Assembly (NCBI RefSeq): GCF_017876815.1
Contig: NZ_JAGIOS010000001.1
Coordinates: 1,200,001-1,232,000 of the forward strand
DNA: 32,000 bases
Reading direction: 5' to 3'
Source of the DNA: Sinorhizobium meliloti
GTDB taxonomy: Bacteria; Pseudomonadota; Alphaproteobacteria; Rhizobiales; Rhizobiaceae
Of this stretch, positions 11,352-25,269 are shown piece by piece. Within the stretch, counting starts at the first letter, position 1, and each line of letters opens with the position of its first letter. The notes beneath the pieces were generated by a model that saw nothing but the letters and a program-made list of their open reading frames with translations, did no database searches and had not been told where the DNA came from. Both the position numbers and the translations under genes were made by a program.

Positions 11352-12653
11352 TTAGCGCCTACTGCATGTTTCCTTTAATCGCTCGCGCATCGGCTGCGCC
11401 CCGTCGGTGAACAATTCCGGCATCAGATCAGCCAGGCGGACGATCTTGCCGGTACGCGAACTCTGAAGCGCCGCAATGCCGCAAAGGACCGACATGGCAC
11501 CGGCCCGCGCGCCGGCGCGCTGTCCCAGCGGATCCTTCGCATCCGGCTCGAAGAGCGTATTCCGCAGCCGGTCGTCGCCGCCATAGTGCCCGCCGGGAAA
11601 ATGCGGCACCGTGATCCGTTCCATCGCCGGCTTGCCCTTCGGAAAGTTGCGGACGAGCAGGATCTCGTCCTCGGGCGGCGTCTCCCAGGGCTGGTCCTCG
11701 TACTGGCGAAGCTCGATCCTGCCCTTCGTACCGTTGAAGGCGATGTGATGGCCTTCGATCGGCTGGAAGGTATTGAGCGAATAGGAGACGTGGACGTCGT
11801 TGCGGTAGCGGATATTCGCGACCATCGTGTCGGGGATGTCGATGTCCTCGCGGAAGACGCAGCCGTCGCGGAAATAGCTGTCGATTTCGGAAGGTTCCTC
11901 ATAGAGCGAGTCGAGAAACGGATCGGCTTCGAGATCGAGGTAGAAGTCGCACTCGCTCTTGTGAGGACAGAGCTTGCAGCGCGGCCCGCGAAACGGTCCC
12001 CTGCGGCCGTACATCTGCAGGTCGGCAAAGGCGCTGACCGCCTCCGGATCGCTGTCGAGATACCAGTTCAGGAGATCGAAATGGTGTGTCGCCTTATGCA
12101 CGAAGAGGCTGCCCGAGTGTTCCGCATAGGCGTGCCAGCGGCGGAAATAATCGGCGCCGTGGCGCGTATCGAGATACCAGTGGAAGTCGACCGAGGTGAC
12201 GCGGCCGATCTCGCCGGCATTGAGGAGTTCCTTGATGCGCGCTGCGGTCGGCGCGAAGCGGTAGTTGAAGGAAACGTCCACCCGCCGCCCGGTCCGCTTC
12301 TCCGCGTCGAGAATGCGGCGGATCTTCTCGACCGTGGTCGACATCGGCTTTTCGGTGATGACGTCGGCGCCGGACTCCAATGCGCGCACGACGATATCGT
12401 CATGCGTGTCGTCCGGCGTGCAGACGATGACGAGATCGGGGCGCGTTTCGGCAAGCATCGCATCGACATTGCCGTAAACAGGCGCATTGGTGGCGATCAT
12501 CGTGCGGGCGCGCTCGGCCCGCAGCGCGTTCGTATCGGCAATGGCGACGAGATCGACGAGGCCGCGCCAGCCGGCCAGCAGATCCCTGCCCCACATGGTT
12601 GTTCCGCGGTTGCCGGTGCCGACCAGCGCAAAGCGACGCTTGTTGTCCATCAT
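11352..12653 (-). CDS. Gfo/Idh/MocA-family oxidoreductase (long form, about 433 aa)
   Basis: N-terminal Rossmann motif RFALVGTGNRG, the EKP motif (DVITEKPM), and the family's C-terminal alpha/beta domain. An insert carries the Cys motif PRCKLCPHKSEC. The start is at tandem ATGs 12653/12650; the track start at 12665 is a TTG. Confidence 0.85.
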   Translation of the reverse strand: MMDNKRRFALVGTGNRGTTMWGRDLLAGWRGLVDLVAIADTNALRAERARTMIATNAPVYGNVDAMLAETRPDLVIVCTPDDTHDDIVVRALESGADVITEKPMSTTVEKIRRILDAEKRTGRRVDVSFNYRFAPTAARIKELLNAGEIGRVTSVDFHWYLDTRHGADYFRRWHAYAEHSGSLFVHKATHHFDLLNWYLDSDPEAVSAFADLQMYGRRGPFRGPRCKLCPHKSECDFYLDLEADPFLDSLYEEPSEIDSYFRDGCVFREDIDIPDTMVANIRYRNDVHVSYSLNTFQPIEGHHIAFNGTKGRIELRQYEDQPWETPPEDEILLVRNFPKGKPAMERITVPHFPGGHYGGDDRLRNTLFEPDAKDPLGQRAGARAGAMSVLCGIAALQSSRTGKIVRLADLMPELFTDGAQPMRERLKETCSRR

Positions 12654-12707
12654 ACCCTCACGCAATCCCTGTCATATCTTGTAGGAGAAACATCCTGCCC
12701 CAGCATA

Positions 12708-13532
12708 TCAGCAGCAATTCCGGTAGCGTTCCACGCAGGTCGCGATCACCTCGTCGGCCGGGCGCTTCCACCAGTTGTCTGCGGAGAATATCTCGACCTC
12801 CTGCGCCCCGTGGAAGCCGGCCGCCTCGATCCGGCGCCGGATGCCCTTGAGATCGATGACGCCGTCGCCCATCATGCCGCGATCCGTCAGCATGTCCTTC
12901 GTGGGCACGAGCCAATCGCAGATGTGGTGAGCGAGGATCGCCTTCATTTTGCCGGCCCGCGCGATCTGATTGGCCAGATCGGGGTCCCACCAGACGTGAT
13001 AGACGTCGATCGCCACGCCGACGCCCGGACCAAGGGTCTCGCAGATGTCGAGAGCCTGGCCGAGCGTGTTCACGCAGGCGCGGTCGGCGGCATACATCGG
13101 ATGCAGCGGCTCGATCGCAAGCGGCACGCCGGCCGCGCGCGCATGCGGCAGCACTGCCGCGATCCCTTCCACAACCATCCGGCGGGCCGCGTCGATGTTC
13201 TTCGAGCCGCCTGGCAGGCCGCCGGCGACCAGCACCAGACAGTCGGCGCCGAGCTCCGCTGCCTCGTCCACCGCGCGCCTGTTGTCATCGATCGCCTTCT
13301 CCCTGCCTGACGCGTCCGGCGCCGGAAAGAAGCCGCCGCGGCAGAGCCCGGTCAGCTTCAGCCCGTTGGCCCGGACGATACGCCCGGCCTCGCCGAGGCC
13401 GATCGCCGCCACCTGGTCGCGCCAGGGCGCGATCGCCGTGATGCCGTGCTTCAGACAGATATCCACGGCTTCGGCGAAGCCGCATTGCTCCCGGATCGTC
13501 GCCAGATTGATGGAAAGCCCCTCGACCTGCAT
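12708..13532 (-). CDS. sugar phosphate isomerase/epimerase-family protein (xylose-isomerase-like TIM barrel)
   Basis: 274 aa from MQVEGLSINLATIRE (ATG 13530-13532, GGGAGGAG upstream). The family pattern is present: GI.AI.PWRD, ...LVLV.GG, PLAIEPLHP, AIDVYHVWWDP and EVEIFS. The track's 117-codon N-terminal extension is Arg/Gly/Pro junk overlapping the upstream gene. Confidence 0.85.
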   Translation of the reverse strand: MQVEGLSINLATIREQCGFAEAVDICLKHGITAIAPWRDQVAAIGLGEAGRIVRANGLKLTGLCRGGFFPAPDASGREKAIDDNRRAVDEAAELGADCLVLVAGGLPGGSKNIDAARRMVVEGIAAVLPHARAAGVPLAIEPLHPMYAADRACVNTLGQALDICETLGPGVGVAIDVYHVWWDPDLANQIARAGKMKAILAHHICDWLVPTKDMLTDRGMMGDGVIDLKGIRRRIEAAGFHGAQEVEIFSADNWWKRPADEVIATCVERYRNCC

Positions 13533-13549
13533 ATGTTCTCCTCCCGATT

Positions 13550-14965
13550 TCAGGATACCATCGCCACCCAGTCCGGCTCGACGGATGAGCCGAGGCCGAC
13601 GGACCGCAAGACGGTGGAAAAAGTGATTTCGCCGCCCCGGATCGCCAGCCGCGCCCGCCCGGAACCGCTTTCGTAGAGATCGCCATGATGGGCGAGATAG
13701 GCGGCCTGCTCCGCCGCCGGGGCGCCGGCCATGCCGTCGACATAGTGGTGGCCGTTGCGTTCGACGTGGCCGGCGCCGACAAGCGCTGCCAGCACGAGGT
13801 CCTGCTGGAGCGCCAGGCCCGACTGCGTCGTCAGGTCCTCGGCGGACATGAAAGAGCGTGCGGCCCCGGCCTCGGCGTTCCACATCTCCACGCGAGCGCG
13901 GTTGACGAGTGCCCGGTAGAAGCCTTTGCAGGACTTCGAGGAGATGCCGGCATAACCGAGCGCGCGGGCACGGAGAAATGCGCCGATATCGCCATCGGAC
14001 TCGTCGATTTCGAGCGGCATCCGCCCGGCGACCTCCGTGACCGGCCTCGACAGCGCCTCGGCGCGAACGATCGGCTGCTCGAAGAAGAGCGCCGAGGCGC
14101 GCAATTTTTCGAGACGCGGCTCTTCGGCGATCCGGTCGAGAAGATCGGCAACGGCATCGGCATTTTCGAACTGCTCGTTGCCGTCGAGCGTCACCCTATA
14201 CGCATCGACGCGCTGGTCGAGGACCGCGGCGATGGCGAGCAGACGCCGGGTGTCCTCGGCCGGGCGGCCCGAAACCTTGATCTTGAAATAACGATGGCCA
14301 TAGGCGGCGATCACCTCTTCCAGAGTCTGCGGCAGTCCGTCCTCCAGCCGCTGCCCGGGCGCTAGATCGGCCGCCGTCAACGCGTCGGCAAGGCCGATCG
14401 TGTGGCGAACGGCCAGCCTCGGGCCAGGTTCGAGGCGCGAAAGGAACCGCGCAAGGTCGAAGCCTTCCAGATCGGGCGCGGTGGCGCCGGTGATGCCCGG
14501 CAGGTTGGCTCTGACCGCCCCGGCGGCGCTTGCTCCGGTCATGCGGCACAGCGCATCGAGGATAGCGCGGTCAAGAAGCGCCAGGCCGTAGGAGGCGACA
14601 AGGGCTGGCAGACCATGCCCGGCTGCCGCCCGGTGGTGATCACCCTCGGCAGCCGCATGCAGGCCAAAGGGGGTCTGCGCCTGCAGCGATGTCAGTCCTT
14701 CGATCGCCAGCCGCAGGGAGGCACGAAGCTGCTCGACATTATCCTCCGGCGAAAGGCCCGGGTTCTTGTCGAACCATTTCGGCATCATCATCTCGGCCGA
14801 CCAGCCGATGGCGGACCGGCCGCGCGCATCCTCGACCCGCACCCGGACGAAGGCCTGCGGCGCGGTCGCAACGCGCGCCGATCCGAAGCGGAAGGGGAAA
14901 CGGAATTCGACCGGCCGCTCGAAAACCTCCGCTTCGGCCAGCCTGACGCGCGGGGCTTCCGTCAT
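13550..14965 (-). CDS. enolase-superfamily protein (mandelate racemase/muconate-lactonizing-enzyme-like), function unknown
   Basis: 471 aa from MTEAPRV (ATG 14963-14965). It has an ordered catalytic signature: FKIKVSG (KxK), then LDGNEQF 31 residues later, then FFEQP, EIDESD and SSKSCKG. Confidence 0.75.
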   Translation of the reverse strand: MTEAPRVRLAEAEVFERPVEFRFPFRFGSARVATAPQAFVRVRVEDARGRSAIGWSAEMMMPKWFDKNPGLSPEDNVEQLRASLRLAIEGLTSLQAQTPFGLHAAAEGDHHRAAAGHGLPALVASYGLALLDRAILDALCRMTGASAAGAVRANLPGITGATAPDLEGFDLARFLSRLEPGPRLAVRHTIGLADALTAADLAPGQRLEDGLPQTLEEVIAAYGHRYFKIKVSGRPAEDTRRLLAIAAVLDQRVDAYRVTLDGNEQFENADAVADLLDRIAEEPRLEKLRASALFFEQPIVRAEALSRPVTEVAGRMPLEIDESDGDIGAFLRARALGYAGISSKSCKGFYRALVNRARVEMWNAEAGAARSFMSAEDLTTQSGLALQQDLVLAALVGAGHVERNGHHYVDGMAGAPAAEQAAYLAHHGDLYESGSGRARLAIRGGEITFSTVLRSVGLGSSVEPDWVAMVS

Positions 14966-14975: not shown

Positions 14976-16139
14976 TCACTCGACGCCGTGCATGGCGAGC
15001 ACGCGCCGCATGCGCGCGGTCGCAAGCTCCGGATCGGCGAGGGCCCCGGCCTTGTCCGCCAGGCGGAAAAGCTCGGCGAGATGGACGAGCGATCGGGCGC
15101 TCTGCTGCCCTCCGATCATGACGAAATGGTCCTGTAGACCGTTCAGATAGGCGAGGAAGACGACGCCGGTCTTGTAGAAACGCGTCGGGGCCTTGAAGAT
15201 GTGGCGCGACAGCGGCACCGTCGGCTCCAGCAATTCGAAGAATTCGCCGTTCCGCCCGCTACCCAGCGCTTCCAGCGCCGCCGAAGCCACCGGCGCGATA
15301 GCGTCGAAGATGCCGAGCAGCGCGTCCGAATGCCCTTCCTCGTCGCCGGCGATGAGCTCGGCATAATTGAAGTCGTCGCCGGTATACATGCGCACGCCTT
15401 TCGGCAGTTGCCGCCGCATCACGATCTCCTTCTCCTTGGAAAGGAGCGAAATCTTGATGCCGTCGACCTTGGCGGCGTGCGCCTCGAGGACGTCGAGGCA
15501 GGTCTTCATCGCCGCCATGTGGTCGGCATTGCCCCAATAGCCTTCGAGCGCCGGATCGAACATCTCGCCGAGCCAATGGATGATCACCGGCTCCTTCACC
15601 TGGGAGAGAACGCGGTCGTAGACGCGGATATAGTCCTCCGGGCCCTTTGCCGCGGCGGCAAGCGCCCGGCTCGCCATCAGGATGATCCGGCCTCCTTCTG
15701 CCTCGATCGCCTCGATCTGGCTCTCATAGGCCGCGAGAATATCGTCGATCGACACGTCCGGCCCCGGCGCCAGATGGTCGGTGCCGGCGCCGCAGGCGAT
15801 CAGCGCGTCCGGGCGGCCGCGCGCTTCGGCAAGCGAGCGGCGGATGAGTTCGCGCGCTTCCGGCCAGCCGAGGCCCATGCCGCGCTGGGCTGTATCCATC
15901 GACTCGGCGACGCCGAGACCGAGATCCCAGAGGCGGTGACGAAAGGCGAGCGTGCGCTCCCAGTCGATCGCCGGCGCCAGCCAGGGATCGTTGTCGGCGA
16001 GCGGGTCGGCGACCACATGGGCGGCGGCGAAGGCGACCCTGGAAAAGGCCTTGGCATCGCGGCTGTTGAACGGCACCGGCCGGCCCGTAAGGTCGTAGCG
16101 GGCAAGCCTGCCTTCGATTGGAAGATCGATGCTGACCAT
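14976..16139 (-). CDS. conserved protein of unknown function, probably DUF993 family (DHDPS-like TIM-barrel fold)
   Basis: 387 aa. The assignment rests on my recollection of DUF993 proteins, which are about 380 aa and usually encoded next to Gfo/Idh/MocA and sugar-phosphate-isomerase genes. I can cite no catalytic motif. Confidence 0.6.
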   Translation of the reverse strand: MVSIDLPIEGRLARYDLTGRPVPFNSRDAKAFSRVAFAAAHVVADPLADNDPWLAPAIDWERTLAFRHRLWDLGLGVAESMDTAQRGMGLGWPEARELIRRSLAEARGRPDALIACGAGTDHLAPGPDVSIDDILAAYESQIEAIEAEGGRIILMASRALAAAAKGPEDYIRVYDRVLSQVKEPVIIHWLGEMFDPALEGYWGNADHMAAMKTCLDVLEAHAAKVDGIKISLLSKEKEIVMRRQLPKGVRMYTGDDFNYAELIAGDEEGHSDALLGIFDAIAPVASAALEALGSGRNGEFFELLEPTVPLSRHIFKAPTRFYKTGVVFLAYLNGLQDHFVMIGGQQSARSLVHLAELFRLADKAGALADPELATARMRRVLAMHGVE

Positions 16140-16142
16140 GGC

Positions 16143-17291
16143 TCAGAGCTCCAATTCCGGAACGTCGAGCCAGCGGCGCTCCGCCCAGGATTTGAGGCCG
16201 AGTTCCGCAAGCTGCACGCCCTTGGCGCCGGCCTCGAGCCCGTGGGGCCAGGGACCGTCCTCCGCCACGTGGCGCAGGAACATTTCCCACTGCGCCTTGA
16301 AGCCGTTGTCGAAGGCCTGCGTATCCGGCACCTCGTCCCAGGTCCTGTAGAAATCGATCGTCTGCGGCTGATCGGGATTCCAGACCGGTTTCGGGGTATT
16401 GACGCGGTGCTGCGTCCAGCACTTCGTGAGCCCGGCGACAGCGGAACCATGGGTTCCGTCGACCTGAAACGTCACCAGATCGTCGCGCCGCACGCGCACC
16501 GCCCAGGAGGAATTGATATGCGCGACGATGCCGCCCTCGAGTTCGAAGGTGGCGTAGGCCGCGTCGTCGGTGTCGCAGTCGTAGGCGCGACCCTGTTCGT
16601 CGATGCGGCTTGGGATATGGGTCGCGCCGAGGCAGGAGACCGCCTTCACTTCCCCGAAGAGATTGTCGAGCACGTAGCGCCAGTGGCAGAGCATGTCGAG
16701 GATGATGCCGCCGCCGTCCTTTTTCCGGTAGTTCCATGAGGGCCGCTGGGCCGGAACGCCCCAATCGCCTTCGAACACCCAGTAGCCGAACTCGCCACGC
16801 ACCGAGAGGATCTTGCCGAAGAAGCCTGAATCCCTCAGCAGGGCCAGTTTGCGAAGGCCGGGCAGGAACAGCTTGTCCTGAACGACCCCATGCTTGAGCC
16901 CGGAGGCGCGCGCCTTCCGCGCCAGTTTGACCGCCGTCCTCAGATCATCGGAGATCGGCTTCTCGCAATAGACGTGCTTGCCGGCGTCGAGCGCGCGGCC
17001 GATGAGCTCGGCACGCATCAGCGTCGTGCCGGCATCGAAGAAGATCTGGTCGTTCGGATCGGCAAGCGCCGCGTCGAGATCGGTCGACCAGCGGGCAATA
17101 TCATGGCGCTTGGCCAATTGCTCCATCTTGTCGCGATTGCGGCCGACGATGATCGGATCGATCTCCAGCCTTTCGCCCGACTGGAGCGTGATCCCGCCCC
17201 GATCACGGATGGCCAGGATCGAACGCACCAGGTGCTGGTTGTATCCCATGCGGCCGGTGACACCGTGCAATATTATACCCAAACGCGGCAT
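16143..17291 (-). CDS. Gfo/Idh/MocA-family oxidoreductase
   Basis: 382 aa from MPRLGIILHGVTGRMG (ATG 17289-17291, GGGAGGAA upstream). It has the EKP motif (HVYCEKPI) and a typical C-terminal domain. First gene of the five-gene minus-strand operon. Confidence 0.87.
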   Translation of the reverse strand: MPRLGIILHGVTGRMGYNQHLVRSILAIRDRGGITLQSGERLEIDPIIVGRNRDKMEQLAKRHDIARWSTDLDAALADPNDQIFFDAGTTLMRAELIGRALDAGKHVYCEKPISDDLRTAVKLARKARASGLKHGVVQDKLFLPGLRKLALLRDSGFFGKILSVRGEFGYWVFEGDWGVPAQRPSWNYRKKDGGGIILDMLCHWRYVLDNLFGEVKAVSCLGATHIPSRIDEQGRAYDCDTDDAAYATFELEGGIVAHINSSWAVRVRRDDLVTFQVDGTHGSAVAGLTKCWTQHRVNTPKPVWNPDQPQTIDFYRTWDEVPDTQAFDNGFKAQWEMFLRHVAEDGPWPHGLEAGAKGVQLAELGLKSWAERRWLDVPELEL

Positions 17292-18285: not shown

Positions 18286-19569
18286 ATGACGCATAAGATC
18301 AGCAGGCGAAATGTACTCGCGGGAGGGGCGGCACTTCTTTCGATGTCCGCACTGGCGCCCGCCTTTGCGCAGGAGGCGCGGCTGCGGGTGCTCTGGTGGG
18401 GTTCGCAGGCCCGTGCCGACCGCACGAACAAGGTCAATCAGCTCTTTCAGGAGCAGAACGCGGGCGTCGCCATCAATGGCGAATTCCTCGGCTGGAGCGA
18501 CTACTGGCCACGGCTTGCGACCCAGGTCGCCGGGCGCAATGCGCCCGACATCATCCAGATGGACTATCGCTACATCGTCGAATATGCCCGGCGCGGCGCG
18601 CTCGCGCCCCTCGACGACTATCTCGGCTCCGTGCTCAAGGTCGAGGATTTCGACCAGGTGCAGATCAAGGGCGGCAGCGTCGAAGGCAAGCTCTACGGCA
18701 TCAGCCTCGGCGCCAACTCGGCAGCGATGATGGTCAATGCCGCCGCTTTCGAGGAAGCCGGCATTGAACTTCCGACGCCGTCAACGACCTGGGATGAGAT
18801 GGCGCGAATCGGCGCCGAGATCACCAAGGCAGGCAAGCGCAAGGGCTTCTATGGCCTCTCCGACGGCAGCGCGGTCGAGCCGCTTTTCGAAAACTGGCTG
18901 CGCCAGCGCGGCAAGGCACTGTTCACCGCGGACGGCAAGATCGCCTATGATGCGAACGATGCGGCCGAATGGTTCGCCATGTGGCAGAAGATGCGAGAGG
19001 ACAAGGCCTGCGTCCCGCCGGACATCCAGGCGCTCGACCAGTACAATGTGGAGACGAGCCCGCTGTCGCTCGGCAAGGCCGCCGCTTCCTTCGCGCACTC
19101 CAACCAGTTCGTCGCCTATCAGGGCATAAACAAGGACAAGCTGGCGTTGAGAAGCCATCCGCTGATCGGCAAGGATGCGAAGGGCGGCCATTACCGCAAG
19201 CCGTCGATGTTCTTCTCGGTCTCGGCCCAGACCAAGGACCCGGAACTCGGCGCCAAATACGTCAACTTCTTCGTCAAGGATCCGAAAGCCGCCGAAATCC
19301 TGGGCGTCGAGCGCGGCGTACCGGAATCGGCAGCCGTGCGCGAAAAACTGGCGTCGACGCTCGACGAGCTCGGCCGCGCCATGCTCGACTATGTCTCCGG
19401 CCTCGGAGCGCTTGCCGGCGATCTGCCGCCGCCGCCGCCCAGCGGTGCCGGCGAGGCGGAATTCGCTCTGCGCAACGTCGCCGAACAGGTCGGCTTCGGT
19501 CAGCTCGACGCCAAGCAAGGGGGCGAGACGCTGGTGAACGAGGTCAGCCAGATCCTCGCGCGGGGTTAA
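18286..19569 (+). CDS. ABC transporter substrate-binding protein, family 1 (CUT1 carbohydrate type)
   Basis: 427 aa from MTHKISRRNVLAGGAALLSMSALAPAFAQEA, a Tat-like signal peptide, with GGGAGGAGG upstream of ATG 18286. The mature part shows the typical sugar-SBP pattern (LRVLWWGS..., PDIIQMDY, YGISLG.N). Confidence 0.88.
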   Translation: MTHKISRRNVLAGGAALLSMSALAPAFAQEARLRVLWWGSQARADRTNKVNQLFQEQNAGVAINGEFLGWSDYWPRLATQVAGRNAPDIIQMDYRYIVEYARRGALAPLDDYLGSVLKVEDFDQVQIKGGSVEGKLYGISLGANSAAMMVNAAAFEEAGIELPTPSTTWDEMARIGAEITKAGKRKGFYGLSDGSAVEPLFENWLRQRGKALFTADGKIAYDANDAAEWFAMWQKMREDKACVPPDIQALDQYNVETSPLSLGKAAASFAHSNQFVAYQGINKDKLALRSHPLIGKDAKGGHYRKPSMFFSVSAQTKDPELGAKYVNFFVKDPKAAEILGVERGVPESAAVREKLASTLDELGRAMLDYVSGLGALAGDLPPPPPSGAGEAEFALRNVAEQVGFGQLDAKQGGETLVNEVSQILARG

Positions 19570-19574
19570 GGAGG

Positions 19575-20531
19575 ATGGCGGCCGTGCAGGACACCGCTGT
19601 CGCAGTCGGCACGGGCGCGTCTTCGCGCCCGGCCGCACAGGGTCGCCTGGCCAGGATATGGGCAAGCCATGGAGCCGGCTACATGTTCCTGTTGCCATGG
19701 CTCATCGGCTTCTTCGGCCTGACGCTCGGGCCCGCCATCGCGTCACTCTATCTCTCCTTCACGAACTTCGACCTGATCCGCGCGCCGGAATGGATCGGCA
19801 CCGCCAACTACGCGCGCATCGCGACGGCCGACCCGAAGTTCGCCGCTGCCGTCAAGGTGACGTTTCTCTATGTCGTGCTCTCGGTGCCCTTCAAGCTCGC
19901 CTTCGCGCTGCTCGTCGCGATCCTTCTCGACCGCGGCGTCCGGGGGCTCACCGTCTATCGGGCGATCTTCTACCTGCCGTCGCTGCTTGGCGGCAGCGTC
20001 GCTATCGCCGTGCTCTGGCGGCAGCTCTTTGCCGGCGACGGCCTGATCAACAGCCTGCTGGCCCAGTTCGGCATCGAGGGGCCGAGCTGGATCTCGCATC
20101 CGGACTATTCGATATGGACGCTCGTGGTCTTGAGCGTCTGGCAGTTCGGATCGCCGATGATCATCTTCCTCGCGGGCCTTCGGCAGATCCCGACGGACAT
20201 GTACGAGGCGGCAAGCCTCGACGGGGCGTCCAAGTTCCGTCAGTTCTACAAGATCACGCTGCCGCTGCTGACGCCGGTCATCTTCTTCAACGCGGTCGTG
20301 CAGACGATCGACGCCTTCAAGGCCTTCACCCCCGCCTTCATCATTTCCGGCGGCACCGGCGGCCCGATCAACTCGACGCTGTTCTACACTCTTTACCTCT
20401 ACCAGGAGGCCTTCGGTAATTTCCGCATGGGCTACGCCTCGGCGCTTGCCTGGATTCTCGTGCTGATCATCGGGCTGTTCACGGCCTTCTCGTTCCTCAC
20501 CTCTCGCTACTGGGTGCACTACGATGACTGA
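19575..20531 (+). CDS. carbohydrate ABC transporter permease (MalF/UgpA-like)
   Basis: 318 aa from MAAVQD (AAGGAGG upstream of ATG 19575). EAA loop YEAASLDGASKFRQFYKITLPLL; six predicted hydrophobic spans. Confidence 0.88.
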   Translation: MAAVQDTAVAVGTGASSRPAAQGRLARIWASHGAGYMFLLPWLIGFFGLTLGPAIASLYLSFTNFDLIRAPEWIGTANYARIATADPKFAAAVKVTFLYVVLSVPFKLAFALLVAILLDRGVRGLTVYRAIFYLPSLLGGSVAIAVLWRQLFAGDGLINSLLAQFGIEGPSWISHPDYSIWTLVVLSVWQFGSPMIIFLAGLRQIPTDMYEAASLDGASKFRQFYKITLPLLTPVIFFNAVVQTIDAFKAFTPAFIISGGTGGPINSTLFYTLYLYQEAFGNFRMGYASALAWILVLIIGLFTAFSFLTSRYWVHYDD

Positions 20532-21411
20532 CGCGACCATGAGCTCGGTAACCGCCCCGCCGCCGGTCCCGACGGGCCGCCGCGGCCCTGTCGGATCGTT
20601 CCTCGTTCACGCCGCCCTGATCGCCGCCTCGATCGCCATGATCTATCCGCTCCTGTGGATGATCTCGGCCTCGGTCAGGCCGGAGGACGAGATCTTCGCC
20701 TCGACGTCGCTTTGGCCCTCCTCGGTGGACTTTTCCTCCTATGTGCGCGGCTGGTTCGGGCTCGACGTCAGCTTCGGGCGGTTCTTCTGGAACTCGCTGG
20801 TCATTGCGGTCCTCACCGTCGTCGGCAATGTCGTCGCCTGCTCGCTCGCGGCCTATGCCTTCGCGAGGCTGCGCTTCGCGGGGCGGAATTTCTGGTTCGC
20901 GGTCATGCTCGGCACGATGATGATCCCCTATCACGTGACGCTCATTCCCCAATATGTGCTCTTCCTCGATCTCGGCTGGGTGAACACCTTCCTGCCGCTG
21001 GTGGTCCCGAAGTTCCTCGCCAGCGATGCCTTCTTCATCTTCCTGATGGTGCAGTTCTTCCGCGGAATACCGCGCGAACTGGACGAAGCGGCGATGATGG
21101 ACGGCTGCGGCGCCTGGCGCATCTACTGGAAGATCATGCTGCCGCTATCGCTTCCCGTTCTGGCGACGGCCGCCATCTTCTCCTTCATCTGGACCTGGGA
21201 CGATTTCTTCGGGCCGCTGATCTACCTCAACGACATGAACAGCTACACGATCCAGCTCGGCTTGAGGACCTTCGTCGACTCCAGCAGCACCTCCGACTGG
21301 GGCGGGCTCTTCGCCATGTCGACGCTCTCGCTCGTGCCGGTGTTCTTCTTCTTCCTCTTCTTCCAGCGCCTTCTGATCGAGGGCATCGCCACAACCGGCA
21401 TGAAGCGCTGA
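20524..21411 (+). CDS. carbohydrate ABC transporter permease (MalG/UgpE-like)
   Basis: 295 aa with EAA loop LDEAAMMDGCGAWRIYWKIMLPLS. It overlaps the preceding permease by 8 nt; ATG 20539 is an alternative start. Confidence 0.88.
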   Translation: MTDATMSSVTAPPPVPTGRRGPVGSFLVHAALIAASIAMIYPLLWMISASVRPEDEIFASTSLWPSSVDFSSYVRGWFGLDVSFGRFFWNSLVIAVLTVVGNVVACSLAAYAFARLRFAGRNFWFAVMLGTMMIPYHVTLIPQYVLFLDLGWVNTFLPLVVPKFLASDAFFIFLMVQFFRGIPRELDEAAMMDGCGAWRIYWKIMLPLSLPVLATAAIFSFIWTWDDFFGPLIYLNDMNSYTIQLGLRTFVDSSSTSDWGGLFAMSTLSLVPVFFFFLFFQRLLIEGIATTGMKR

Positions 21412-21433: not shown

Positions 21434-22450
21434 ATGGACGAACTGCGTTTCGCTGCCGTCGGGCTCAACCACAACCACATCTACGGCCAGGTCAACTGCC
21501 TGCTTCGGGCCGGCGCCCGCCTCGCCGGCTTCCACGAGAAGGACGATGCGCTGGCCGCGGAATTTTCCGCCGTCTACGCGGACGCCCGGCGCATCGCGAC
21601 GGCAGAGGAAATCCTCGAGGACGAGAACATCGGCCTCATCGTCTCGGCCGCCGTTTCGAGCGAGCGCGCGGAACTGGCGATCCGTGCCATGCAGCACGGC
21701 AAGGACGTGCTCGTCGACAAGCCGGGCATGACGAGCTTCGACCAGCTCGCCAAGCTGCGCCGGGTCCAGGCCGAGACGGGCCGCATCTTCTCGATCCTCT
21801 ATTCGGAGCATTTCGAGAGCCCGGCCACGGTCAAGGCCGGCGAGCTCGTCGCCGCCGGCGCGATCGGCGAGGTGGTGCACATCGTCGGCCTCGGCCCGCA
21901 CAGGCTGCGCCGCGAGACGCGGCCCGACTGGTTCTTCCGCCGCGCGGACTATGGCGGCATCCTGACCGACATCGCATCGCACCAGTGCGAGCAGTTCCTG
22001 TTCTTCACCGGCGTCAACGACGCGACCGTGCTATCGGCAAGCGTCGGCAACCGAAGCGTTCCCGACGCTCCGGAACTGCAGGATACGGGCAGTATCCACC
22101 TCTCGACGGGGCGGACCACCGGCATGATTCATGTGAACTGGCTGACCCCGGAGGGAATGCCGACCTGGGGTGACGGCCGGCTCTTCATCGTCGGCACCTC
22201 CGGAACGATCGAGGTCCGCAAGACGGTCGATCTCGCCGGCCGCGAAGGCGGCAACCACCTGTTTCTCGCGGACCGCAACGGCGTCGAACATATCGACTGC
22301 TCTCGCGTCGACCTGCCCTTCGGGCGCCAGTTCCTCGCCGACATCCGCGACAGGACCGAAACCGCAATGCCGCAGGAGCGCTGCTTCAAGGCCATGGAGC
22401 TTGCGCTTCAGGCGCAGGCGATCGCCGAACAGAACGGGGACAGGAACTGA
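21434..22450 (+). CDS. Gfo/Idh/MocA-family oxidoreductase with a non-canonical dinucleotide-binding loop
   Basis: 338 aa from MDELRFAAVGLNHNHIYG (ATG 21434; the track start at 21422 is a TTG). The family core is present (DVLVDKPG in place of EKP, and the C-terminal domain), but GLNHNH replaces GxGxxG. Confidence 0.8.
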   Translation: MDELRFAAVGLNHNHIYGQVNCLLRAGARLAGFHEKDDALAAEFSAVYADARRIATAEEILEDENIGLIVSAAVSSERAELAIRAMQHGKDVLVDKPGMTSFDQLAKLRRVQAETGRIFSILYSEHFESPATVKAGELVAAGAIGEVVHIVGLGPHRLRRETRPDWFFRRADYGGILTDIASHQCEQFLFFTGVNDATVLSASVGNRSVPDAPELQDTGSIHLSTGRTTGMIHVNWLTPEGMPTWGDGRLFIVGTSGTIEVRKTVDLAGREGGNHLFLADRNGVEHIDCSRVDLPFGRQFLADIRDRTETAMPQERCFKAMELALQAQAIAEQNGDRN

Positions 22451-22451
22451 C

Positions 22452-23525
22452 ATGAGCGTGAAGACAGTTGCCATCATCGGCTGCGGCATCGGGCGTTCGC
22501 ACATCGTCGAAGGCTATCAGCCGCACCCGGACAAGTTCCGGGTCCAGGCTCTCTGCGACCTCAACGAGGAGCGGCTGAACGAGGTCGGCGACGAATTCGG
22601 CATCGAGCAGCGGACCCGCTCCTTCAACGAACTGCTCGACGACGACAGCATCGACATCATCGACATCTGCACCCCGCCAGGCATCCATCTCGAACAGGTG
22701 CTCGCAGCACTTGCCGCCGGCAAGCATGTGATCTGCGAAAAGCCGCTGACCGGATCGCTCGAGGGCGTCGATGCGATCATGGAAGCCGAGAAAGAGGCCC
22801 GCGGCGTGCTGATGCCGATCTTCCAGTACCGCTATGGCGACGGCATCGAGAAAGCCAAGCGCATCATCGAGGCGGGCATCGCGGGCAAGCCCTATGTCGG
22901 CTCGGTCGAGACGTTCTGGCTGCGCACGCCCGAATATTATTCCGTCCCCTGGCGCGGCAAGTGGGCGACGGAGCTCGGCGGCGTGCTCGTCACCCACGCG
23001 CTGCATCTGCACGATATGATGCTGCATCTTCTCGGCCCGGTGGCGCGCGTATTCGGCCGCGTCGCGACCCGGGTCAACGACATCGAGGTCGAGGATTGCG
23101 CCTCGGCGAGCCTGCTCATGAAGAACGGCGCCTTCGTTTCGCTTTCCTGTACGCTCGGCTCGCAGGAGCAGATCAGCCGGCTCAGGCTGCATTTCGAGAA
23201 CGTCACCTTCGAAAGCAGCCACGAACCCTATGCGCCGGGTAAGGATCCGTGGAAGATCATCGCGGCAAATGACGAAGTGCAGGCGCGGATAGACGAAGTG
23301 ACCGGCGACTGGCGCCCGGTCTCGCCACGCTTTACCACCCAGATGGCGCATTTCCACGATTTCCTGAGCGGCAGGGGACCCCTGCCCGTGACGACGCAGG
23401 ACGCGCGCCGCGCACTGGAACTGGTCACCGCGATCTATCAATCCGCCGATACCGGCCGCGAAATTGAGTTACCGCTTGGGCCGGACAGCCCGAAATATGC
23501 CGATTGGCGTGCGAATACCCGATAA
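22452..23525 (+). CDS. Gfo/Idh/MocA-family oxidoreductase
   Basis: 357 aa from [17 protein letters not shown] (canonical GxGxxG). EKP motif [11 protein letters not shown] 22452 lies 1 nt after the preceding stop. Confidence 0.87.
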
Positions 23526-23548
23526 AGGCCGCAGGGAGGGACTTTGAC

Positions 23549-24631
23549 ATGGCGACGAGCGTCGTTCTTCAGAAGGTCGAGAAGCGCTACGGCGCGCTCG
23601 ACGTGATCCACGGCATCGACCTGACCATAGACCCCGGCGAGTTCGCCGTCTTCGTGGGTCCGTCCGGTTGCGGCAAGTCGACGCTGCTCAGAATGATCGC
23701 CGGACTGGAGGAGATTTCCGGCGGCACGCTGATGCTCGACAGCGACCGGATGAACGAAGTGGCACCCGCCAGACGCGGCATTGCCATGGTGTTCCAGTCC
23801 TATGCGCTCTATCCGCACATGTCGGTCTACAAGAATCTCGCTTTCGGCCTCGAAACGGCCGGCTTCAAGAAGGCCGAAATCGAGCCGAAGGTGCGCCGGG
23901 CGGCCGAGATCCTGCAGATCGAAAAGCTGCTCGACCGCAAGCCGAAGGCGCTCTCCGGCGGTCAGCGGCAGCGCGTGGCGATCGGCCGGGCGATCGTGCG
24001 CGAGCCGCGCATCTTCCTCTTCGACGAGCCGCTTTCCAACCTCGACGCCGAACTCCGCGTGCAGATGCGCGTCGAGATCTCGAGGCTTCATCGGGACCTC
24101 GGCAACACCATGATCTATGTGACGCACGATCAGGTGGAGGCCATGACCATGGCCGACAAGATCGTCGTCCTGAATTCCGGCCGAATCGAGCAGGTGGGCG
24201 CACCGCTCGATCTCTACAACAATCCCGTCAACCGCTTCGTCGCCGGCTTCATCGGCAGCCCCAAGATGAATTTCCTCAAGGCGCGGATCGCGGACGTCAC
24301 CGGAAGCGAGACGGCGATCGAGGTCTGCGGCGGAACGATCCGCCTTCCCCGTCGCCTGAACGGTGCGACACAGGGACAGGACGTCACGTTCGGCATCCGG
24401 CCGGAGCATCTTTCCGCGCGCGAGGGCGGTATCGAGCTCGCTACCGTCAATGTCGAGATTGTCGAGAATCTCGGCGGCGAAACCATGCTCTACGGGATCA
24501 CGCCGGATCGCCAGCAGCTGACCGTCGCGCTGGAGGGGCAGCAGAAGGTCGAGCGCGGCTCCAATCTCGCCGTCCACTTCGACCCGTCGCGCTGCCATGT
24601 CTTCGGCGCCGACGGCAGGGCCATGCGATGA
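23549..24631 (+). CDS. ABC transporter ATP-binding protein (MalK/UgpC type)
   Basis: 360 aa from [15 protein letters not shown] (GGGAGGGA upstream of ATG 23549). Walker [10 protein letters not shown], signature LSGGQRQR, Walker [13 protein letters not shown], and a C-terminal MalK-like regulatory/TOBE domain. Confidence 0.92.
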
Positions 24632-25269
24632 AACTGTTCTACAGCCGCAATCCCAATCCGCGTCTTGCCGTCGCGGTGGCACGCCATCTCGCAGCCGAGG
24701 TCGAGTTCGAGTTCGCCTCGCCCTTCGCGCCGGGGCAGGCGGAACGGTTTCGGCCGCTCAACCCGAACCTTTCGCTGCCGATACTCGTGGAGGCCGGAAA
24801 AAGCCTTTGGGAGGCCGACGCGATCGCCTGCCGGCTTTCACGCGCGATGCAATCGGATTTCTGGCGCATCGGCGACGACGAACCCGACATGGTCCGATGG
24901 ATCAGCTGGGGCAAGGAAAACTTCGTACGAGCTTGCGACATGGTGCAGTTCGAGCGCGGCACGAAGCAGCGCTATGGGCTCGGCCCGATCGACCAGCAGC
25001 TGGTCGAGGAGGGGCTGAGCATGTTCCGTACGGCAGCGGCGATACTCGATATGGAGCTTTCCGGGCGGAACTGGCTGGTCGGAGGCGCCGTGTCCCATGC
25101 GGATTTCCGAATGGCGACCTTTCTGCCCTTCAACGATGCCGCCGGGCTGCCGCTTGGCGATTATCCCAACATCTGCCGCTGGATTGACCGGCTCGAGGAG
25201 ATCGATGCCTGGCGCGATCCCTTCAGGGGACTGGATGCGCCCGAACTGCCGCCTGTCCCGGAGCGCTGA
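24628..25269 (+). CDS. glutathione S-transferase-family protein
   Basis: 213 aa, [17 protein letters not shown].... The N-terminus is thioredoxin-like ([21 protein letters not shown]) and the C-terminus is a helical GST_C-like domain (W..G...S.AD......L). Its ATG overlaps the ATPase stop (ATGA at 24628-24631). Confidence 0.78.

What the first reader, a model, noticed from the sequence alone, without database searches (positions are those of the whole stretch)
11352..25269. TetR-centred carbohydrate locus with no hydrolase: four Gfo/Idh/MocA oxidoreductases, a TIM-barrel isomerase/lyase-like protein, a DUF993-like protein, an enolase-superfamily protein, a CUT1 importer and a GST
Two tightly packed operons flank a TetR gene. 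The minus-strand operon runs 17291->11352 with intergenic gaps of 3, 10, 17 and 54 nt. The plus-strand operon runs 18286->25269 with gaps or overlaps of 5, -8, 22, 1, 23 and -4 nt. The importer is CUT1 type (family-1 SBP, MalFG-like permeases, MalK/UgpC-like ATPase), a class that normally takes up glycosides, oligosaccharides or polyols. Despite this, the locus encodes no glycoside hydrolase, sugar kinase or aldolase. Gfo/Idh/MocA dehydrogenases paired with a xylose-isomerase-like TIM barrel are the signature of oxidise-then-eliminate sugar chemistry. Known examples are C-glycoside deglycosylation (DgpA with DgpBC, CarA with CarBC), levoglucosan degradation (LgdA/LgdB/LgdC), 3-keto-glucoside metabolism in Agrobacterium, and IolG/IolE and MocA/MocC in inositol and rhizopine catabolism. 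To my knowledge, none of those characterised systems also carries a DUF993 protein, an enolase-superfamily enzyme with intact ligands and a translationally coupled GST. I cannot name the substrate. This is the best candidate in the window for an undescribed catabolic pathway.
Basis: partly seen in the sequence, partly recalled or inferred. Interest (0 to 1): 0.72.

Follow-up and report, generated by a model that had tools for sequence, protein, structure and literature searches.

The report
Orphan TetR-controlled sugar-acid catabolic regulon
This Sinorhizobium meliloti locus is a real, expressed pair of operons under one repressor, and at its heart is a widespread three-enzyme module (a dehydrogenase, a DUF993 protein and an isomerase-like barrel) whose substrate nobody has identified, although the evidence points to an acidic sugar rather than a neutral glycoside.

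Summary
All 13 genes, their families and the intergenic distances are as described. The window is the S. meliloti chromosome, SMc04129 to SMc04141.

The two operons form one regulon. A palindrome, GTAAC-N6-GTTAY, sits in both promoters and nowhere else in the window. It recurs upstream of the orthologous operons in 43 of 80 related loci.

The 12-gene set is not the conserved unit. The core is Gfo(g5)-DUF993(g4)-XI-like TIM(g2). TetR accompanies it in 51 of 80 loci and the enolase-type protein in 31 of 80. The importer is swapped between lineages: CUT1, TctABC tricarboxylate-type, or NitT/TauT-type ABC. The GST occurs in 0 of 80 loci and is a recent S. meliloti-clade addition.

"No aldolase" is doubtful. 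DUF993 aligns weakly but consistently with DHDPS/NAL class I aldolases, and an invariant lysine falls on the Schiff-base position.

Four clues favour an acidic (carboxylate) sugar substrate: the Tct transporters, the enolase-superfamily fold, the DHDPS-like lyase, and an SBP whose nearest solved relatives are YesO and TogB.

No protein reaches any curated equivalog cut-off (Lgd, Iol, BT_2158/9). No paper in the library mentions DUF993. It is a genuine orphan pathway built from familiar enzyme types. Interest is moderate.

The parts
11352..12653 (-). g1, a Gfo/Idh/MocA oxidoreductase of 433 aa (SMc04129 by consecutive numbering). It carries a conserved C-x2-C-x5-C insert. Accessory gene: found only where the CUT1 importer is present.
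   Evidence: Pfam. Present in 11 of 80 related loci. Cys motif conserved in 12 of 12 sequences.
12708..13532 (-). g2, a xylose-isomerase-like TIM barrel (SMc04130). Core gene; inferred keto-acid or keto-sugar isomerase/epimerase.
   Evidence: Pfam AP_endonuc_2, 148 bits. PDB 3ju2 and 3qc0 are this protein and carry no assigned function. A Paenibacillus orthologue is PDB 7vpf. Present in 72 of 80 loci. Nearest named relatives are IolI (E 3e-7) and IolO (E 2e-8), both far below cut-off.
13550..14965 (-). g3, a divergent enolase-superfamily protein of 471 aa (SMc04131 by numbering). Optional accessory; inferred epimerase/racemase (or cycloisomerase) acting next to a carboxylate.
   Evidence: MR_MLE_C 29.7 bits. 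AlphaFold pLDDT 90 and Foldseek probability 1.0 to enolase-superfamily structures at 13-20% identity. Invariant K228-x-K230, D261, E296, D321, K344/K347. Present in 31 of 80 loci.
14976..16139 (-). g4, the DUF993 protein (SMc04132). Core gene; inferred DHDPS-like, Schiff-base-forming lyase (aldolase or dehydratase).
   Evidence: PF06187, 620 bits. PDB 4dnh, 'uncharacterized protein'. Weak same-register alignments to DHDPS. K229 invariant in 71 of 71 orthologues.
16143..17291 (-). g5, a Gfo/Idh/MocA oxidoreductase (SMc04133). Core gene and first gene of the minus-strand operon; inferred NAD(P)-dependent dehydrogenase.
   Evidence: Pfam. A close homologue (E 3e-180) is PDB 3oqb. Present in 72 of 80 loci. 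Conserved (H/N/Y)G(V/I)TGRMG N-terminal motif.
17344..17359 (.). Operator-like palindrome GTAACTAATCGGTTAC, 53 nt upstream of the g5 start codon.
   Evidence: 0.01 matches expected by chance in the window. The same motif lies within 250 nt upstream of g5 in 27 related loci.
17414..18148 (-). g6, the TetR-family regulator (SMc04134). PGAP starts it at 18092. Inferred repressor of both operons.
   Evidence: TetR_N plus TetR_C_29. Present in 51 of 80 loci. Listed as a transcription factor in PMC11387232.
18217..18232 (.). Second operator-like site, GTAACCAAATAGTTAT, 54 nt upstream of the SBP start codon.
   Evidence: The equivalent site lies upstream of the CUT1 SBP gene in 14 related loci.
18286..19569 (+). 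g7, a family-1 (CUT1) solute-binding protein (SMc04135).
   Evidence: SBP_bac_1 and SBP_bac_8. Nearest solved relatives are YesO (5z6b; 4r6k also matches at E about 1e-56) and TogB (2uvh, E 1e-33). Present in 19 of 80 loci.
19575..20531 (+). g8, ABC permease (MalF-type).
   Evidence: BPD_transp_1. Annotated as a sugar ABC permease.
20524..21411 (+). g9, ABC permease (MalG-type). Overlaps g8 by 8 nt.
   Evidence: BPD_transp_1; annotation.
21434..22450 (+). g10, a Gfo/Idh/MocA protein (SMc04138) with a non-canonical N-terminal motif, G(L/I)NHxHI, in place of GxGxxG. It travels with the CUT1 importer.
   Evidence: Pfam. PDB 3u3x is this protein. Present in 11 of 80 loci. Motif conserved.
22452..23525 (+). 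g11, a Gfo/Idh/MocA oxidoreductase (SMc04139). It travels with the CUT1 importer.
   Evidence: Pfam. Present in 15 of 80 loci.
23549..24631 (+). g12, a MalK/UgpC-type ABC ATPase.
   Evidence: ABC_tran plus OB_MalK plus TOBE_2. UgpC subfamily model scores 485 bits against a cut-off of 432.
24628..25269 (+). g13, a glutathione S-transferase family protein, translationally coupled to g12. A lineage-specific add-on, not part of the conserved system.
   Evidence: GST_N and GST_C. Present in 0 of 80 related loci. The megablast match to S. fredii and others ends at query position 13274, the end of g12.
25290..26174 (-). SMP-30/gluconolactonase-family protein, convergent with g13. A possible feeder step (sugar lactone to sugar acid). 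In this window it sits with a separate FCD-GntR module.
   Evidence: PF08450, 227 bits. Orthologues (53-63% identity) lie next to or inside the CUT1 operon in L006, L034 and L035; a second SMP-30 type occurs in 5 further loci.

Best explanation
The locus is a single TetR-repressed catabolic regulon for a carboxylate-bearing carbohydrate: a sugar acid, a keto-deoxy sugar acid, or an acidic glycoside that yields one.

Shown:
- The TetR gene sits between two promoters, and each carries the palindrome GTAAC-N6-GTTAY.
- The same site precedes the orthologous operons across Alphaproteobacteria and some Beta- and Gammaproteobacteria.
- The conserved catalytic core is g5 (Gfo/Idh/MocA dehydrogenase), g4 (DUF993) and g2 (xylose-isomerase-like TIM barrel). 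g3 (enolase superfamily) is an optional fourth gene.
- The importer differs by lineage.

Inferred mechanism:
1. In S. meliloti the YesO/TogB-like CUT1 system imports the compound.
2. The three accessory Gfo enzymes (g10, g11, g1) convert it oxidatively to the acid that the core handles. A neighbouring SMP-30 lactonase may help. Other bacteria take that acid up directly through TctABC or a NitT/TauT-type ABC system.
3. Where present, g3 uses its two-lysine, Mg-dependent active site to epimerise the carbon next to the carboxylate, widening the stereoisomers accepted.
4. g5 oxidises a secondary alcohol to a ketone.
5. g2 shifts or epimerises next to that carbonyl.
6. g4 forms a Schiff base through its invariant Lys229 with the resulting 2-oxo acid and cleaves or dehydrates it to central metabolites.
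7. The pathway substrate or an intermediate releases TetR.

The GST is a recent passenger.
For: Regulon:
- The palindrome occurs only at 17344 and 18217 in the 32 kb window, against 0.01 expected by chance.
- 43 of 80 DUF993 loci carry it. It lies within 250 nt upstream of g5 in 27 loci, the CUT1 SBP gene in 14, tetR in 12, tctC in 8, a second TIM-barrel gene in 5 and a second DHDPS-like gene in 3.

Core:
- g5 is in 72 of 80 loci, g2 in 72, TetR in 51 and g3 in 31.
- The trio persists in Paenibacillus, Sediminibacillus, Lederbergia and Roseiflexaceae, where AraC or LacI replaces TetR.

Carboxylate substrate:
- tctCBA lies beside or inside the core operon in 16 loci, for example L019, L020 and L079 between g4 and g3.
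- g3 has the enolase-superfamily fold and invariant KxK/D/E/D/K residues. By established knowledge this superfamily abstracts the proton next to a carboxylate.
- The SBP's closest solved relatives are YesO and TogB, which bind uronate-containing disaccharides (ligand specificity is from my own knowledge).

DUF993 as a DHDPS-like lyase:
- A profile search hits three DHDPS entries at E 0.017-0.05 over the lysine-bearing region.
- The same register appears against a DHDPS-family paralogue and against E. coli DapA: G-I-K aligns with G-I-K161 and TGDD with SGDD.
- K229 is invariant in 71 of 71 orthologues.
- NCBI names the protein 'dihydrodipicolinate synthase family'.

Expression: SMc04132, 04133, 04135, 04138 and 04139 proteins were detected together in TY medium but not in mannitol minimal medium (PMC12542648).

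Lactone entry: SMP-30 genes occur in or beside 8 related loci.
Against: - No substrate has been identified. Every chemical step is inferred from superfamily membership.
- The DHDPS relationship rests on weak alignments (E 0.005-0.05; hhalign probability 2-7%).
- CUT1 systems usually carry neutral sugars.
- In Firmicutes the trio sits beside neutral-glycan hydrolases (GH51, GH29, GH42), which fits a neutral monosaccharide as well.
- NitT/TauT-type SBPs are not typical sugar-acid receptors.
- Repression by TetR and binding to the palindrome are untested.
- The roles of g1, g10 and g11 are guesses. g10 lacks a canonical dinucleotide-binding motif.
Confidence: 0.5

Rival explanations
1. The locus degrades a neutral glycoside, C-glycoside or anhydrosugar. 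A Gfo enzyme oxidises C3. The TIM-barrel enzyme then eliminates or hydrates, as in LgdA/B, DgpA/BC, CarA/BC or BT2157-2159. This would replace a glycoside hydrolase.
For: - A CUT1 importer, several Gfo enzymes and an XI-like TIM barrel are present, with no glycoside hydrolase or kinase in the S. meliloti locus.
- The Gfo proteins give family-level hits to DgpA, levoglucosan dehydrogenase, glucuronide 3-dehydrogenase and other Gfo entries.
- Firmicute versions lie near glycan-degrading genes.
Against: - All equivalog models fail by a wide margin. Levoglucosan dehydrogenase scores 33-99 bits against 650. BT_2159 and BT_2158 score 16-37 against 650-750.
- g2 gives no match to DgpB/C or other C-glycoside lyases at E below 0.01.
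- The core is mostly found without CUT1, and often with TctABC inside the operon.
- This reading gives no role to the enolase-type protein or the DHDPS-like protein.
Confidence: 0.15
2. The DUF993 trio is the missing lower half of a non-phosphorylative aldose pathway whose upper half lies next door at 25290-29822. That module would run sugar 1-dehydrogenase (extended SDR), then SMP-30 lactonase, then IlvD-type aldonate dehydratase, giving a 2-keto-3-deoxy-aldonate. g5, g2 and g4 would then process that product.
For: - The adjacent genes are an L-arabinonate dehydratase equivalog (1042 bits against a cut-off of 882), an SMP-30 protein, an extended SDR and an FCD-GntR regulator. No downstream aldolase or keto-deoxy-acid dehydratase is among these four genes.
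- Parts of this module recur beside the DUF993 core in 7 of 80 loci from several lineages. In Microvirga the SMP-30 and SDR genes follow g10 in the CUT1 operon.
- By established knowledge, DHDPS-family enzymes act on 2-keto-3-deoxy acids.
Against: - Only 7 of 80 loci show the association.
- In S. meliloti the two modules have separate regulators, and no GTAAC-N6-GTTAY site lies in the neighbouring module.
- This reading does not explain why the trio needs a dehydrogenase and an isomerase.
Confidence: 0.15
3. The substrate is a cyclitol or a cyclitol carboxylic acid (an inositol isomer, or quinate/shikimate). g5 would act as an inositol/quinate-type dehydrogenase. DUF993 would be a Schiff-base dehydratase comparable to type I dehydroquinase. 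g2 would be an inosose isomerase or a dehydroshikimate-dehydratase-like enzyme.
For: - The best named relatives of g5 are scyllo-inositol dehydrogenases (E 2.5e-15).
- IolI is the best-scoring functionally named structure for g2 (E 3e-7).
- IolG is the top, though sub-threshold, NCBIfam model for three of the four Gfo proteins.
- Quinate is a carboxylate, which would fit Tct transporters.
Against: - IolG scores are 41-108 bits against a cut-off of 355.
- No IolD, IolB, IolC or IolE is present, and no protocatechuate-pathway genes appear among the recurrent neighbours.
- g2 gives no match to a dehydroshikimate dehydratase at E below 0.01.
- This reading gives no role to g3 or to the recurring 2-hydroxyacid dehydrogenase and lactonase neighbours.
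Confidence: 0.08
4. The juxtaposition is accidental: unrelated oxidoreductase genes collected around a transporter, with no shared pathway.
For: The peripheral genes (GST, g1, g10, g11 and the transporter type) vary between genomes.
Against: - Core synteny holds across 72 of 80 loci and in Firmicutes.
- A shared operator lies in both promoters and is conserved in 43 loci.
- Genes are tightly packed, with overlapping stop and start codons.
- Five of the proteins are co-detected in proteomics.
Confidence: 0.02

Closest known systems
E. coli ycjQRS-ycjNOPV system (D-guloside to D-glucoside conversion; Raushel laboratory, recalled from my own knowledge)
   Same: A CUT1-type ABC importer is encoded with a Gfo/Idh/MocA dehydrogenase (YcjS) and a xylose-isomerase-like TIM-barrel epimerase (YcjR). 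The logic is oxidise, then rearrange next to the carbonyl, without initial hydrolysis or phosphorylation.
   Different: The ycj cluster has no DUF993, no enolase-type protein and no TetR. It does carry phosphorylases. Here the core also occurs without any CUT1 system. Sequence relationships are at family level only.
Levoglucosan (LgdA/B1/B2/C), C-glycoside (DgpA/BC, CarA/BC) and Bacteroides BT2157-2159 3-keto-glycoside pathways
   Same: Gfo/Idh/MocA dehydrogenases are paired with XI-like TIM-barrel enzymes and an ABC importer.
   Different: All curated models are missed by a wide margin. Only one TIM-barrel gene is present, so there is no DgpB/C-type pair. These pathways contain no DUF993 or enolase-superfamily member, and their substrates are neutral.
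Agrobacterium oxidative uronate pathway (Udh, galactarolactone cycloisomerase Gci, keto-deoxy-galactarate dehydratase KdgD; recalled from my own knowledge)
   Same: It combines a sugar-acid dehydrogenase, an MLE-subgroup enolase-superfamily enzyme acting on an acid-sugar derivative, and a DHDPS-family Schiff-base enzyme. These are the same three superfamily types inferred here for g5, g3 and g4.
   Different: Udh is an SDR, not a Gfo enzyme. Gci and KdgD are ordinary members of their families, whereas g3 and g4 are highly divergent (13-20% identity, and E about 0.02). g3 is optional here. That pathway has no XI-like TIM barrel.
Acid-sugar pathways found through transporter SBPs (L-threonate/D-erythronate: LtnD, OtnI, OtnK, OtnC; D-apionate pathways; Gerlt laboratory, recalled from my own knowledge)
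   Same: Small acid sugars are taken up by TRAP, TTT or ABC systems. They are oxidised by a dehydrogenase and then isomerised by an XI-like TIM barrel (OtnI). g2 gives a weak hit to the OtnI model (E 2e-4).
   Different: Those routes proceed through a DUF1537 kinase and a class II aldolase-type decarboxylase. No kinase is present here, and a DHDPS-like protein takes the terminal position.
Structural-genomics entries 4dnh (SMc04132), 3ju2/3qc0 (SMc04130), 3u3x (SMc04138), 3oqb and 7vpf
   Same: 4dnh, 3ju2/3qc0 and 3u3x match these very proteins (near-identical over the full length); 3oqb and 7vpf are homologues.
   Different: They are deposited as 'uncharacterized protein', 'sugar isomerase', 'oxidoreductase' or 'xylose isomerase'. 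No function is attached, and the library holds no paper citing them.

Membership tests
Gfo/Idh/MocA oxidoreductases (g1, g5, g10, g11) | N-terminal NAD-binding Rossmann domain (PF01408) plus a C-terminal alpha/beta domain (PF02894 or PF22725). | tested here: met
   All four pass Pfam cut-offs for both domains. g10 has a non-canonical G(L/I)NHxHI motif in place of GxGxxG, so its cofactor binding is uncertain.
Levoglucosan pathway (LgdA) | Score at or above the NCBIfam equivalog cut-off for levoglucosan dehydrogenase (NF052479, 650 bits). | tested here: not met
   Scores are 33.5-99.2 bits for the four Gfo proteins.
Bacteroides 3-keto-glycoside pathway (BT_2158/BT_2159) | Score at or above the cut-off of NF058561 (750 bits) or NF058563 (650 bits). 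| tested here: not met
   The best score is 37 bits.
C-glycoside deglycosylation (DgpA with DgpB/C, or CarA with CarB/C) | A 3-oxidase plus a two-subunit XI-like TIM-barrel C-C lyase. | tested here: not met
   Only one TIM-barrel gene is in the locus. g2 gives no hit to DgpB/C-type chains at E below 0.01. DgpA hits are generic family-level matches (E 1e-7 to 1e-21).
Inositol catabolism (iol) | IolG equivalog score of at least 355 bits (TIGR04380), with IolE, IolD, IolB and IolC partners. | tested here: not met
   Scores are 41-108 bits. No IolD, IolB, IolC or IolE family is found in the locus.
Enolase superfamily (g3) | Capping domain plus modified TIM barrel. | tested here: met
   AlphaFold model pLDDT 90.3. 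Foldseek gives probability 1.0 to more than 200 enolase-superfamily chains, with target-normalised TM-score up to 0.75. Pfam MR_MLE_C just passes, at 29.7 against 29.4 bits.
Enolase superfamily (g3) | Three carboxylate metal ligands on successive strands, plus general-base residues (KxK and a strand-6 Lys in the MLE subgroup). | tested here: met
   K228-x-K230, D261, E296, D321 and K344/K347 are invariant in 38 homologues at 58-80% identity. Their spacing is like that of muconate lactonising enzyme. The strand assignment is inferred from spacing, not from a structural superposition.
DHDPS/NAL class I aldolase family (g4, DUF993) | A Schiff-base lysine on a TIM-barrel strand in a G-x-K motif, followed about 24 residues later by an S/T-G-D-D turn. 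| tested here: inconclusive
   A profile search hits DHDPS at E 0.017-0.049 over this region. K229 is invariant in 71 of 71 sequences and TGDD in 70 of 71. Pfam's DHDPS model is not matched.
DHDPS/NAL class I aldolase family (g4, DUF993) | A catalytic Tyr/Thr triad and actual imine formation with a 2-oxo acid. | not testable with these tools
   This needs a superposition of 4dnh on DHDPS or NAL structures, and borohydride trapping.
CUT1 ABC importer | A family-1 SBP, two MalF/MalG-type permeases and a MalK-type ATPase with a C-terminal regulatory domain. | tested here: met
   SBP_bac_1 and SBP_bac_8, two BPD_transp_1 proteins, and ABC_tran plus OB_MalK plus TOBE_2. The UgpC subfamily model scores 485 bits against 432.
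TetR-family repressor with palindromic operator | An N-terminal TetR HTH domain, a ligand-binding C-terminal domain, and a palindromic site in the target promoters. | tested here: met
   TetR_N plus TetR_C_29. GTAAC-N6-GTTAY lies in both promoters and is conserved in 43 of 80 loci. Binding itself is untested.
GST as a pathway component | Co-conservation with the other genes. | tested here: not met
   GST domains are present, but no orthologue occurs in any of 80 related loci, and the gene is absent from other Sinorhizobium species at this position.

The most novel reading that the evidence does not exclude
DUF993 is a previously unrecognised, highly divergent branch of the DHDPS/NAL Schiff-base lyases. 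Together with a dedicated Gfo dehydrogenase and an XI-like isomerase, it forms a new, widespread, kinase-free three-step route. That route would take an abundant plant- or microbe-derived acid sugar (for example a uronate-derived or keto-deoxy acid) directly to central metabolites. The module is plugged into different importers (CUT1, TTT, NitT/TauT, Opp-type) in different phyla.
Probability: 0.3. Interest if true: 0.7.

Novelty: new variant of a known kind. Interest (0 to 1): 0.5.

Why it matters
DUF993 homologues are numerous. The word-indexed search filled its 8000-candidate limit, and 2007 representatives at 50% identity score E up to 0.001. They occur in soil, rhizosphere and marine Proteobacteria and in Firmicutes and Chloroflexi.

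Four proteins of this module have been crystallised, three of them from this very locus, and none has an assigned function. Identifying the substrate would annotate thousands of genes at once. It would also define a new reaction for a divergent class I aldolase-like fold and add a carbon source to rhizobial metabolic models.

This analysis narrows the experiment. The unit to study is the g5-g4-g2 core with its TetR and operator. Ligand screens should favour acidic sugars. The GST can be ignored.

Tried and rejected
- Literature. Six of the ten allowed full-text searches were run: DUF993, PF06187/IPR009334, all twelve SMc locus tags searched (SMc04137 and SMc04140 were not), the PDB codes, and combinations of family names. 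They returned only a proteomics table and a network paper, with no functional study. The Mauchline 2006 transportome paper is not held.
- Single-sequence AlphaFold model of g3. It was useless (pLDDT 35) and was redone with an alignment.
- DUF993 structure. It could not be folded and fold-searched because both prediction jobs went on g3. The DHDPS link therefore rests on sequence profiles only.
- First attempt at related loci. A 17-sequence alignment was too divergent. A 7-sequence alignment worked.
- 7vpf. This 'xylose isomerase' entry was followed up in the hope of finding a published function. It is a Paenibacillus orthologue from the same trio, and no paper was found.
- Urea-transporter (Urt) genes. 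They lie next to the core in Ferrovibrio-type loci. I judge this a lineage-specific coincidence.
- Dehydroshikimate-dehydratase-like role for g2. No sequence support was found.
- Promoter and terminator consensus scans. They were uninformative in this high-GC genome.

Full report
**1. What is there**

The window is the Sinorhizobium meliloti chromosome. The 13.9 kb region is 99.5% identical to a 3.7 Mb S. meliloti record and 96% identical to other Sinorhizobium records. That record annotates the same genes.

The genes correspond to SMc04129 to SMc04141 of strain 1021. Seven tags are confirmed. A published table names SMc04132, 04133, 04135, 04138 and 04139 with matching descriptions. A PDB title names SMc04130. 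A network paper lists SMc04134 as a transcription factor. The other tags follow by consecutive numbering.

Pfam confirms the families:
- four Gfo/Idh/MocA proteins (g1, g5, g10, g11);
- one xylose-isomerase-like TIM barrel (g2);
- DUF993 (g4);
- a borderline enolase C-terminal domain (g3);
- a TetR regulator;
- a family-1 SBP, two permeases and a MalK/UgpC-type ATPase;
- a GST.

**2. The enolase-type protein**

g3 has no sequence match in the PDB and barely passes Pfam. An alignment-based AlphaFold model is confident (pLDDT 90). Foldseek places it in the enolase superfamily with probability 1.0 at only 13-20% identity.

Among 38 homologues, K228-x-K230, D261, E296, D321 and K344/K347 are invariant. 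Their spacing is that of the muconate-lactonising subgroup: a KxK motif, three metal ligands and a strand-6 lysine. The strand assignment is inferred from spacing.

**3. DUF993**

The protein is PDB 4dnh, deposited as an uncharacterised protein. NCBI names it "dihydrodipicolinate synthase family".

Three alignments bear on this:
- A profile of diverse DUF993 sequences hits three DHDPS entries at E 0.017-0.05. The match covers profile positions 223-316 and DHDPS residues 155-245, the region that carries the Schiff-base lysine.
- A profile-profile alignment to a DHDPS-family paralogue that sits next to the core in some genomes gives E 0.005.

All three are in the same register. G-I-K229 aligns with G-I-K161, and T-G-D-D with S-G-D-D. 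K229 is invariant in 71 of 71 orthologues, and YTGDDFNY is present in 67 of 71.

Each alignment is weak on its own, with hhalign probabilities of 2-7%. I rate the relationship as likely, not proven. It undercuts the statement that the locus has no aldolase.

**4. Comparative genomics**

A scan of 185,579 species genomes returned at least 593 DUF993 loci. The 80 closest (65-83% identity) were fetched with 10 kb flanks. Gene co-occurrence is as follows:

| Gene | Loci out of 80 |
|---|---|
| g5 | 72 |
| g2 | 72 |
| TetR | 51 |
| g3 | 31 |
| CUT1 SBP and permeases | about 19 |
| g11 | 15 |
| g10 | 11 |
| g1 | 11 |
| GST | 0 |

The conserved unit is g5-g4-(g3)-g2 with TetR.

The importer is interchangeable:
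- CUT1 in Rhizobiaceae and Devosia.
- TctC/B/A tripartite tricarboxylate systems beside or inside the operon in 16 loci. For example, they lie between g4 and g3 in L019, L020 and L079, and between tetR and g3 in L040, L044, L046 and L050.
- A NitT/TauT-type ABC system with an NMT1-like SBP in Bradyrhizobium, Rhodopseudomonas, Azospirillum and others.

In Paenibacillus, Sediminibacillus, Lederbergia and a Roseiflexaceae genome the trio is intact. It is controlled by AraC or LacI and sits near glycan hydrolases, CUT1 or Opp-type transporters and a 2-hydroxyacid dehydrogenase.

The GST is missing even from S. fredii, S. americanum and related species. Their megablast matches stop at query position 13274, the end of the ATPase gene.

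**5. Regulon**

The palindrome GTAAC-N6-GTTAY occurs at 17344-17359, 53 nt upstream of g5. It also occurs at 18217-18232, 54 nt upstream of the SBP gene. It occurs nowhere else in 32 kb, where 0.01 matches are expected by chance.

I found the motif by eye, so the within-window statistic is post hoc. The independent test is conservation. 43 of 80 related loci carry the motif. It lies within 250 nt upstream of these genes:

| Gene downstream of the site | Loci |
|---|---|
| g5 | 27 |
| CUT1 SBP gene | 14 |
| tetR | 12 |
| tctC | 8 |
| second TIM-barrel gene | 5 |
| second DHDPS-like gene | 3 |

This is strong comparative evidence that one regulator, presumably the TetR, controls the core plus whichever importer is present.

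Proteomics from another laboratory agrees. It detected SMc04132, 04133, 04135, 04138 and 04139 only in TY medium, not in mannitol minimal medium. All five proteins were lower in a phbC phaR mutant than in the phbC strain (PMC12542648).

**6. What the substrate is likely to be**

Four independent hints point to a carboxylate:
- Tct systems are carboxylate importers.
- Enolase-superfamily enzymes abstract a proton next to a carboxylate.
- DHDPS-family enzymes work on 2-oxo acids.
- The SBP's nearest solved relatives are YesO (E about 1e-56) and TogB (E 1e-33), which bind uronate-containing disaccharides.

The ligand specificities and family chemistries above come from my own knowledge.

SMP-30 lactonases recur in or beside eight related loci. 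One lies immediately downstream here, at 25290-26174. It sits with an FCD-GntR regulator, an L-arabinonate-dehydratase equivalog (1042 bits against a cut-off of 882) and an extended SDR. Parts of that neighbouring module occur beside the DUF993 core in 7 of 80 loci. That is a lead, not a proof, of a functional link.

Against the carboxylate idea, CUT1 systems mostly carry neutral sugars, and the Firmicute contexts are neutral-glycan contexts.

**7. Mechanism proposed (inferred)**

1. The compound is imported.
2. The transporter-linked Gfo enzymes, perhaps with a lactonase, convert it oxidatively to the acid.
3. g3 optionally epimerises the carbon next to the carboxylate.
4. g5 oxidises an alcohol to a ketone.
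5. g2 isomerises or epimerises next to the carbonyl.
6. g4 cleaves or dehydrates the product through a Schiff base.

TetR would be released by the substrate or an intermediate. I give about 0.5 to the general statement: a TetR regulon for an acidic carbohydrate with this core logic. I give less to any single step.

**8. Comparison with known systems**

No protein reaches a curated equivalog cut-off. Levoglucosan dehydrogenase scores 33-99 bits against 650. IolG scores 41-108 against 355. BT_2158 and BT_2159 score at most 37 against 650-750. g2's best named relatives are IolI, IolO and OtnI, all far below threshold.

The systems that work most alike are:
- the E. coli ycjQRS/ycjNOPV cluster (Gfo, XI-like epimerase and CUT1);
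- the Agrobacterium oxidative uronate route (dehydrogenase, MLE-type cycloisomerase and DHDPS-type dehydratase);
- the acid-sugar pathways with OtnI-type isomerases.

None contains DUF993. The locus is a member of none of these families.

**9. Novelty and verdict**

The locus is a genuine, conserved, expressed, uncharacterised catabolic regulon. Its parts come from familiar superfamilies, and many orphan sugar-acid clusters of this general kind exist. A specialist would find it worthwhile rather than startling.

This analysis changes the unit to study: the core trio plus TetR and its operator, not twelve genes. It also changes the likely ligand class to acids, gives DUF993 a probable role as a Schiff-base lyase, and shows that the GST is irrelevant. 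Interest is 0.5, and the novelty class is a new variant of a known kind.

Noticed in passing
window 25290-29822: A separate sugar-acid module lies immediately downstream. It comprises an SMP-30 lactonase (-), an FCD-type GntR regulator (-), an IlvD-family dehydratase that passes the NCBIfam L-arabinonate dehydratase equivalog cut-off (1042 bits against 882), and a 261 aa extended SDR that resembles sugar 1-dehydrogenases. No downstream keto-deoxy-acid enzyme is among these four genes. Parts of the module recur beside DUF993 loci in 7 of 80 genomes.
   Followed up: partly
window 24628-25269: The GST overlaps the ATPase stop codon by 4 nt, yet it is confined to the S. meliloti clade. It is absent from S. 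fredii, S. americanum, S. terangae and related species at this position, and from all 80 related loci. It looks like a recent insertion at the 3' end of the operon.
   Followed up: yes
window 21434-22450 (g10) and 11352-12653 (g1): g10 replaces the canonical GxGxxG dinucleotide-binding motif with a conserved G(L/I)NHxHI. g1 carries a conserved C-x2-C-x5-C insert (CKLCPHKSEC) that could bind a metal. Both features are conserved among orthologues and are unexplained.
   Followed up: partly
L041, L043, L054, L056, L060, L064, L068; and L014, L020, L040, L041, L044, L046, L050, L054: In Tct-type loci the core is often joined by a second, more orthodox DHDPS-family gene (Pfam DHDPS, E 3e-6) placed just upstream of g5, and by a second XI-like TIM-barrel gene. 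Each has its own GTAAC-N6-GTTAC site. An NAD-dependent epimerase-family gene also recurs in six loci.
   Followed up: partly
window 1-11254: The upstream neighbours are a nucleoside-salvage cluster (upp, thymidine phosphorylase, purine-nucleoside phosphorylase, cytidine deaminase and an ABC importer) and a cadmium/zinc P-type ATPase at 9023-11254 (-). A phosphoketolase gene begins near 29970 and runs off the end of the window.
   Followed up: no
GenBank CP090106.1 (L001): This 3.72 Mb record is titled 'plasmid pSymB' and is held in the plasmid collection. Its gene content and size are those of the S. meliloti chromosome, so the record appears to be mislabelled.
   Followed up: no
L070, L073, L078 (Bradyrhizobium), about 240-2160: Two PfkB/ribokinase-family kinase genes lie just upstream of the TetR/NitT-type/DUF993 operon. 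Together with the NMT1-like SBP, this probably explains the old SEED label 'potentially related to ribose or hydroxymethylpyrimidine metabolism' seen on one homologue.
   Followed up: no
window 11586-13310 (+), 15201-16739 (+), 18969-20531 (+): Long ORFs of 500-570 aa lie antisense to, or out of frame with, the real genes. They are typical of this 62-69% GC DNA and are not genes.
   Followed up: yes
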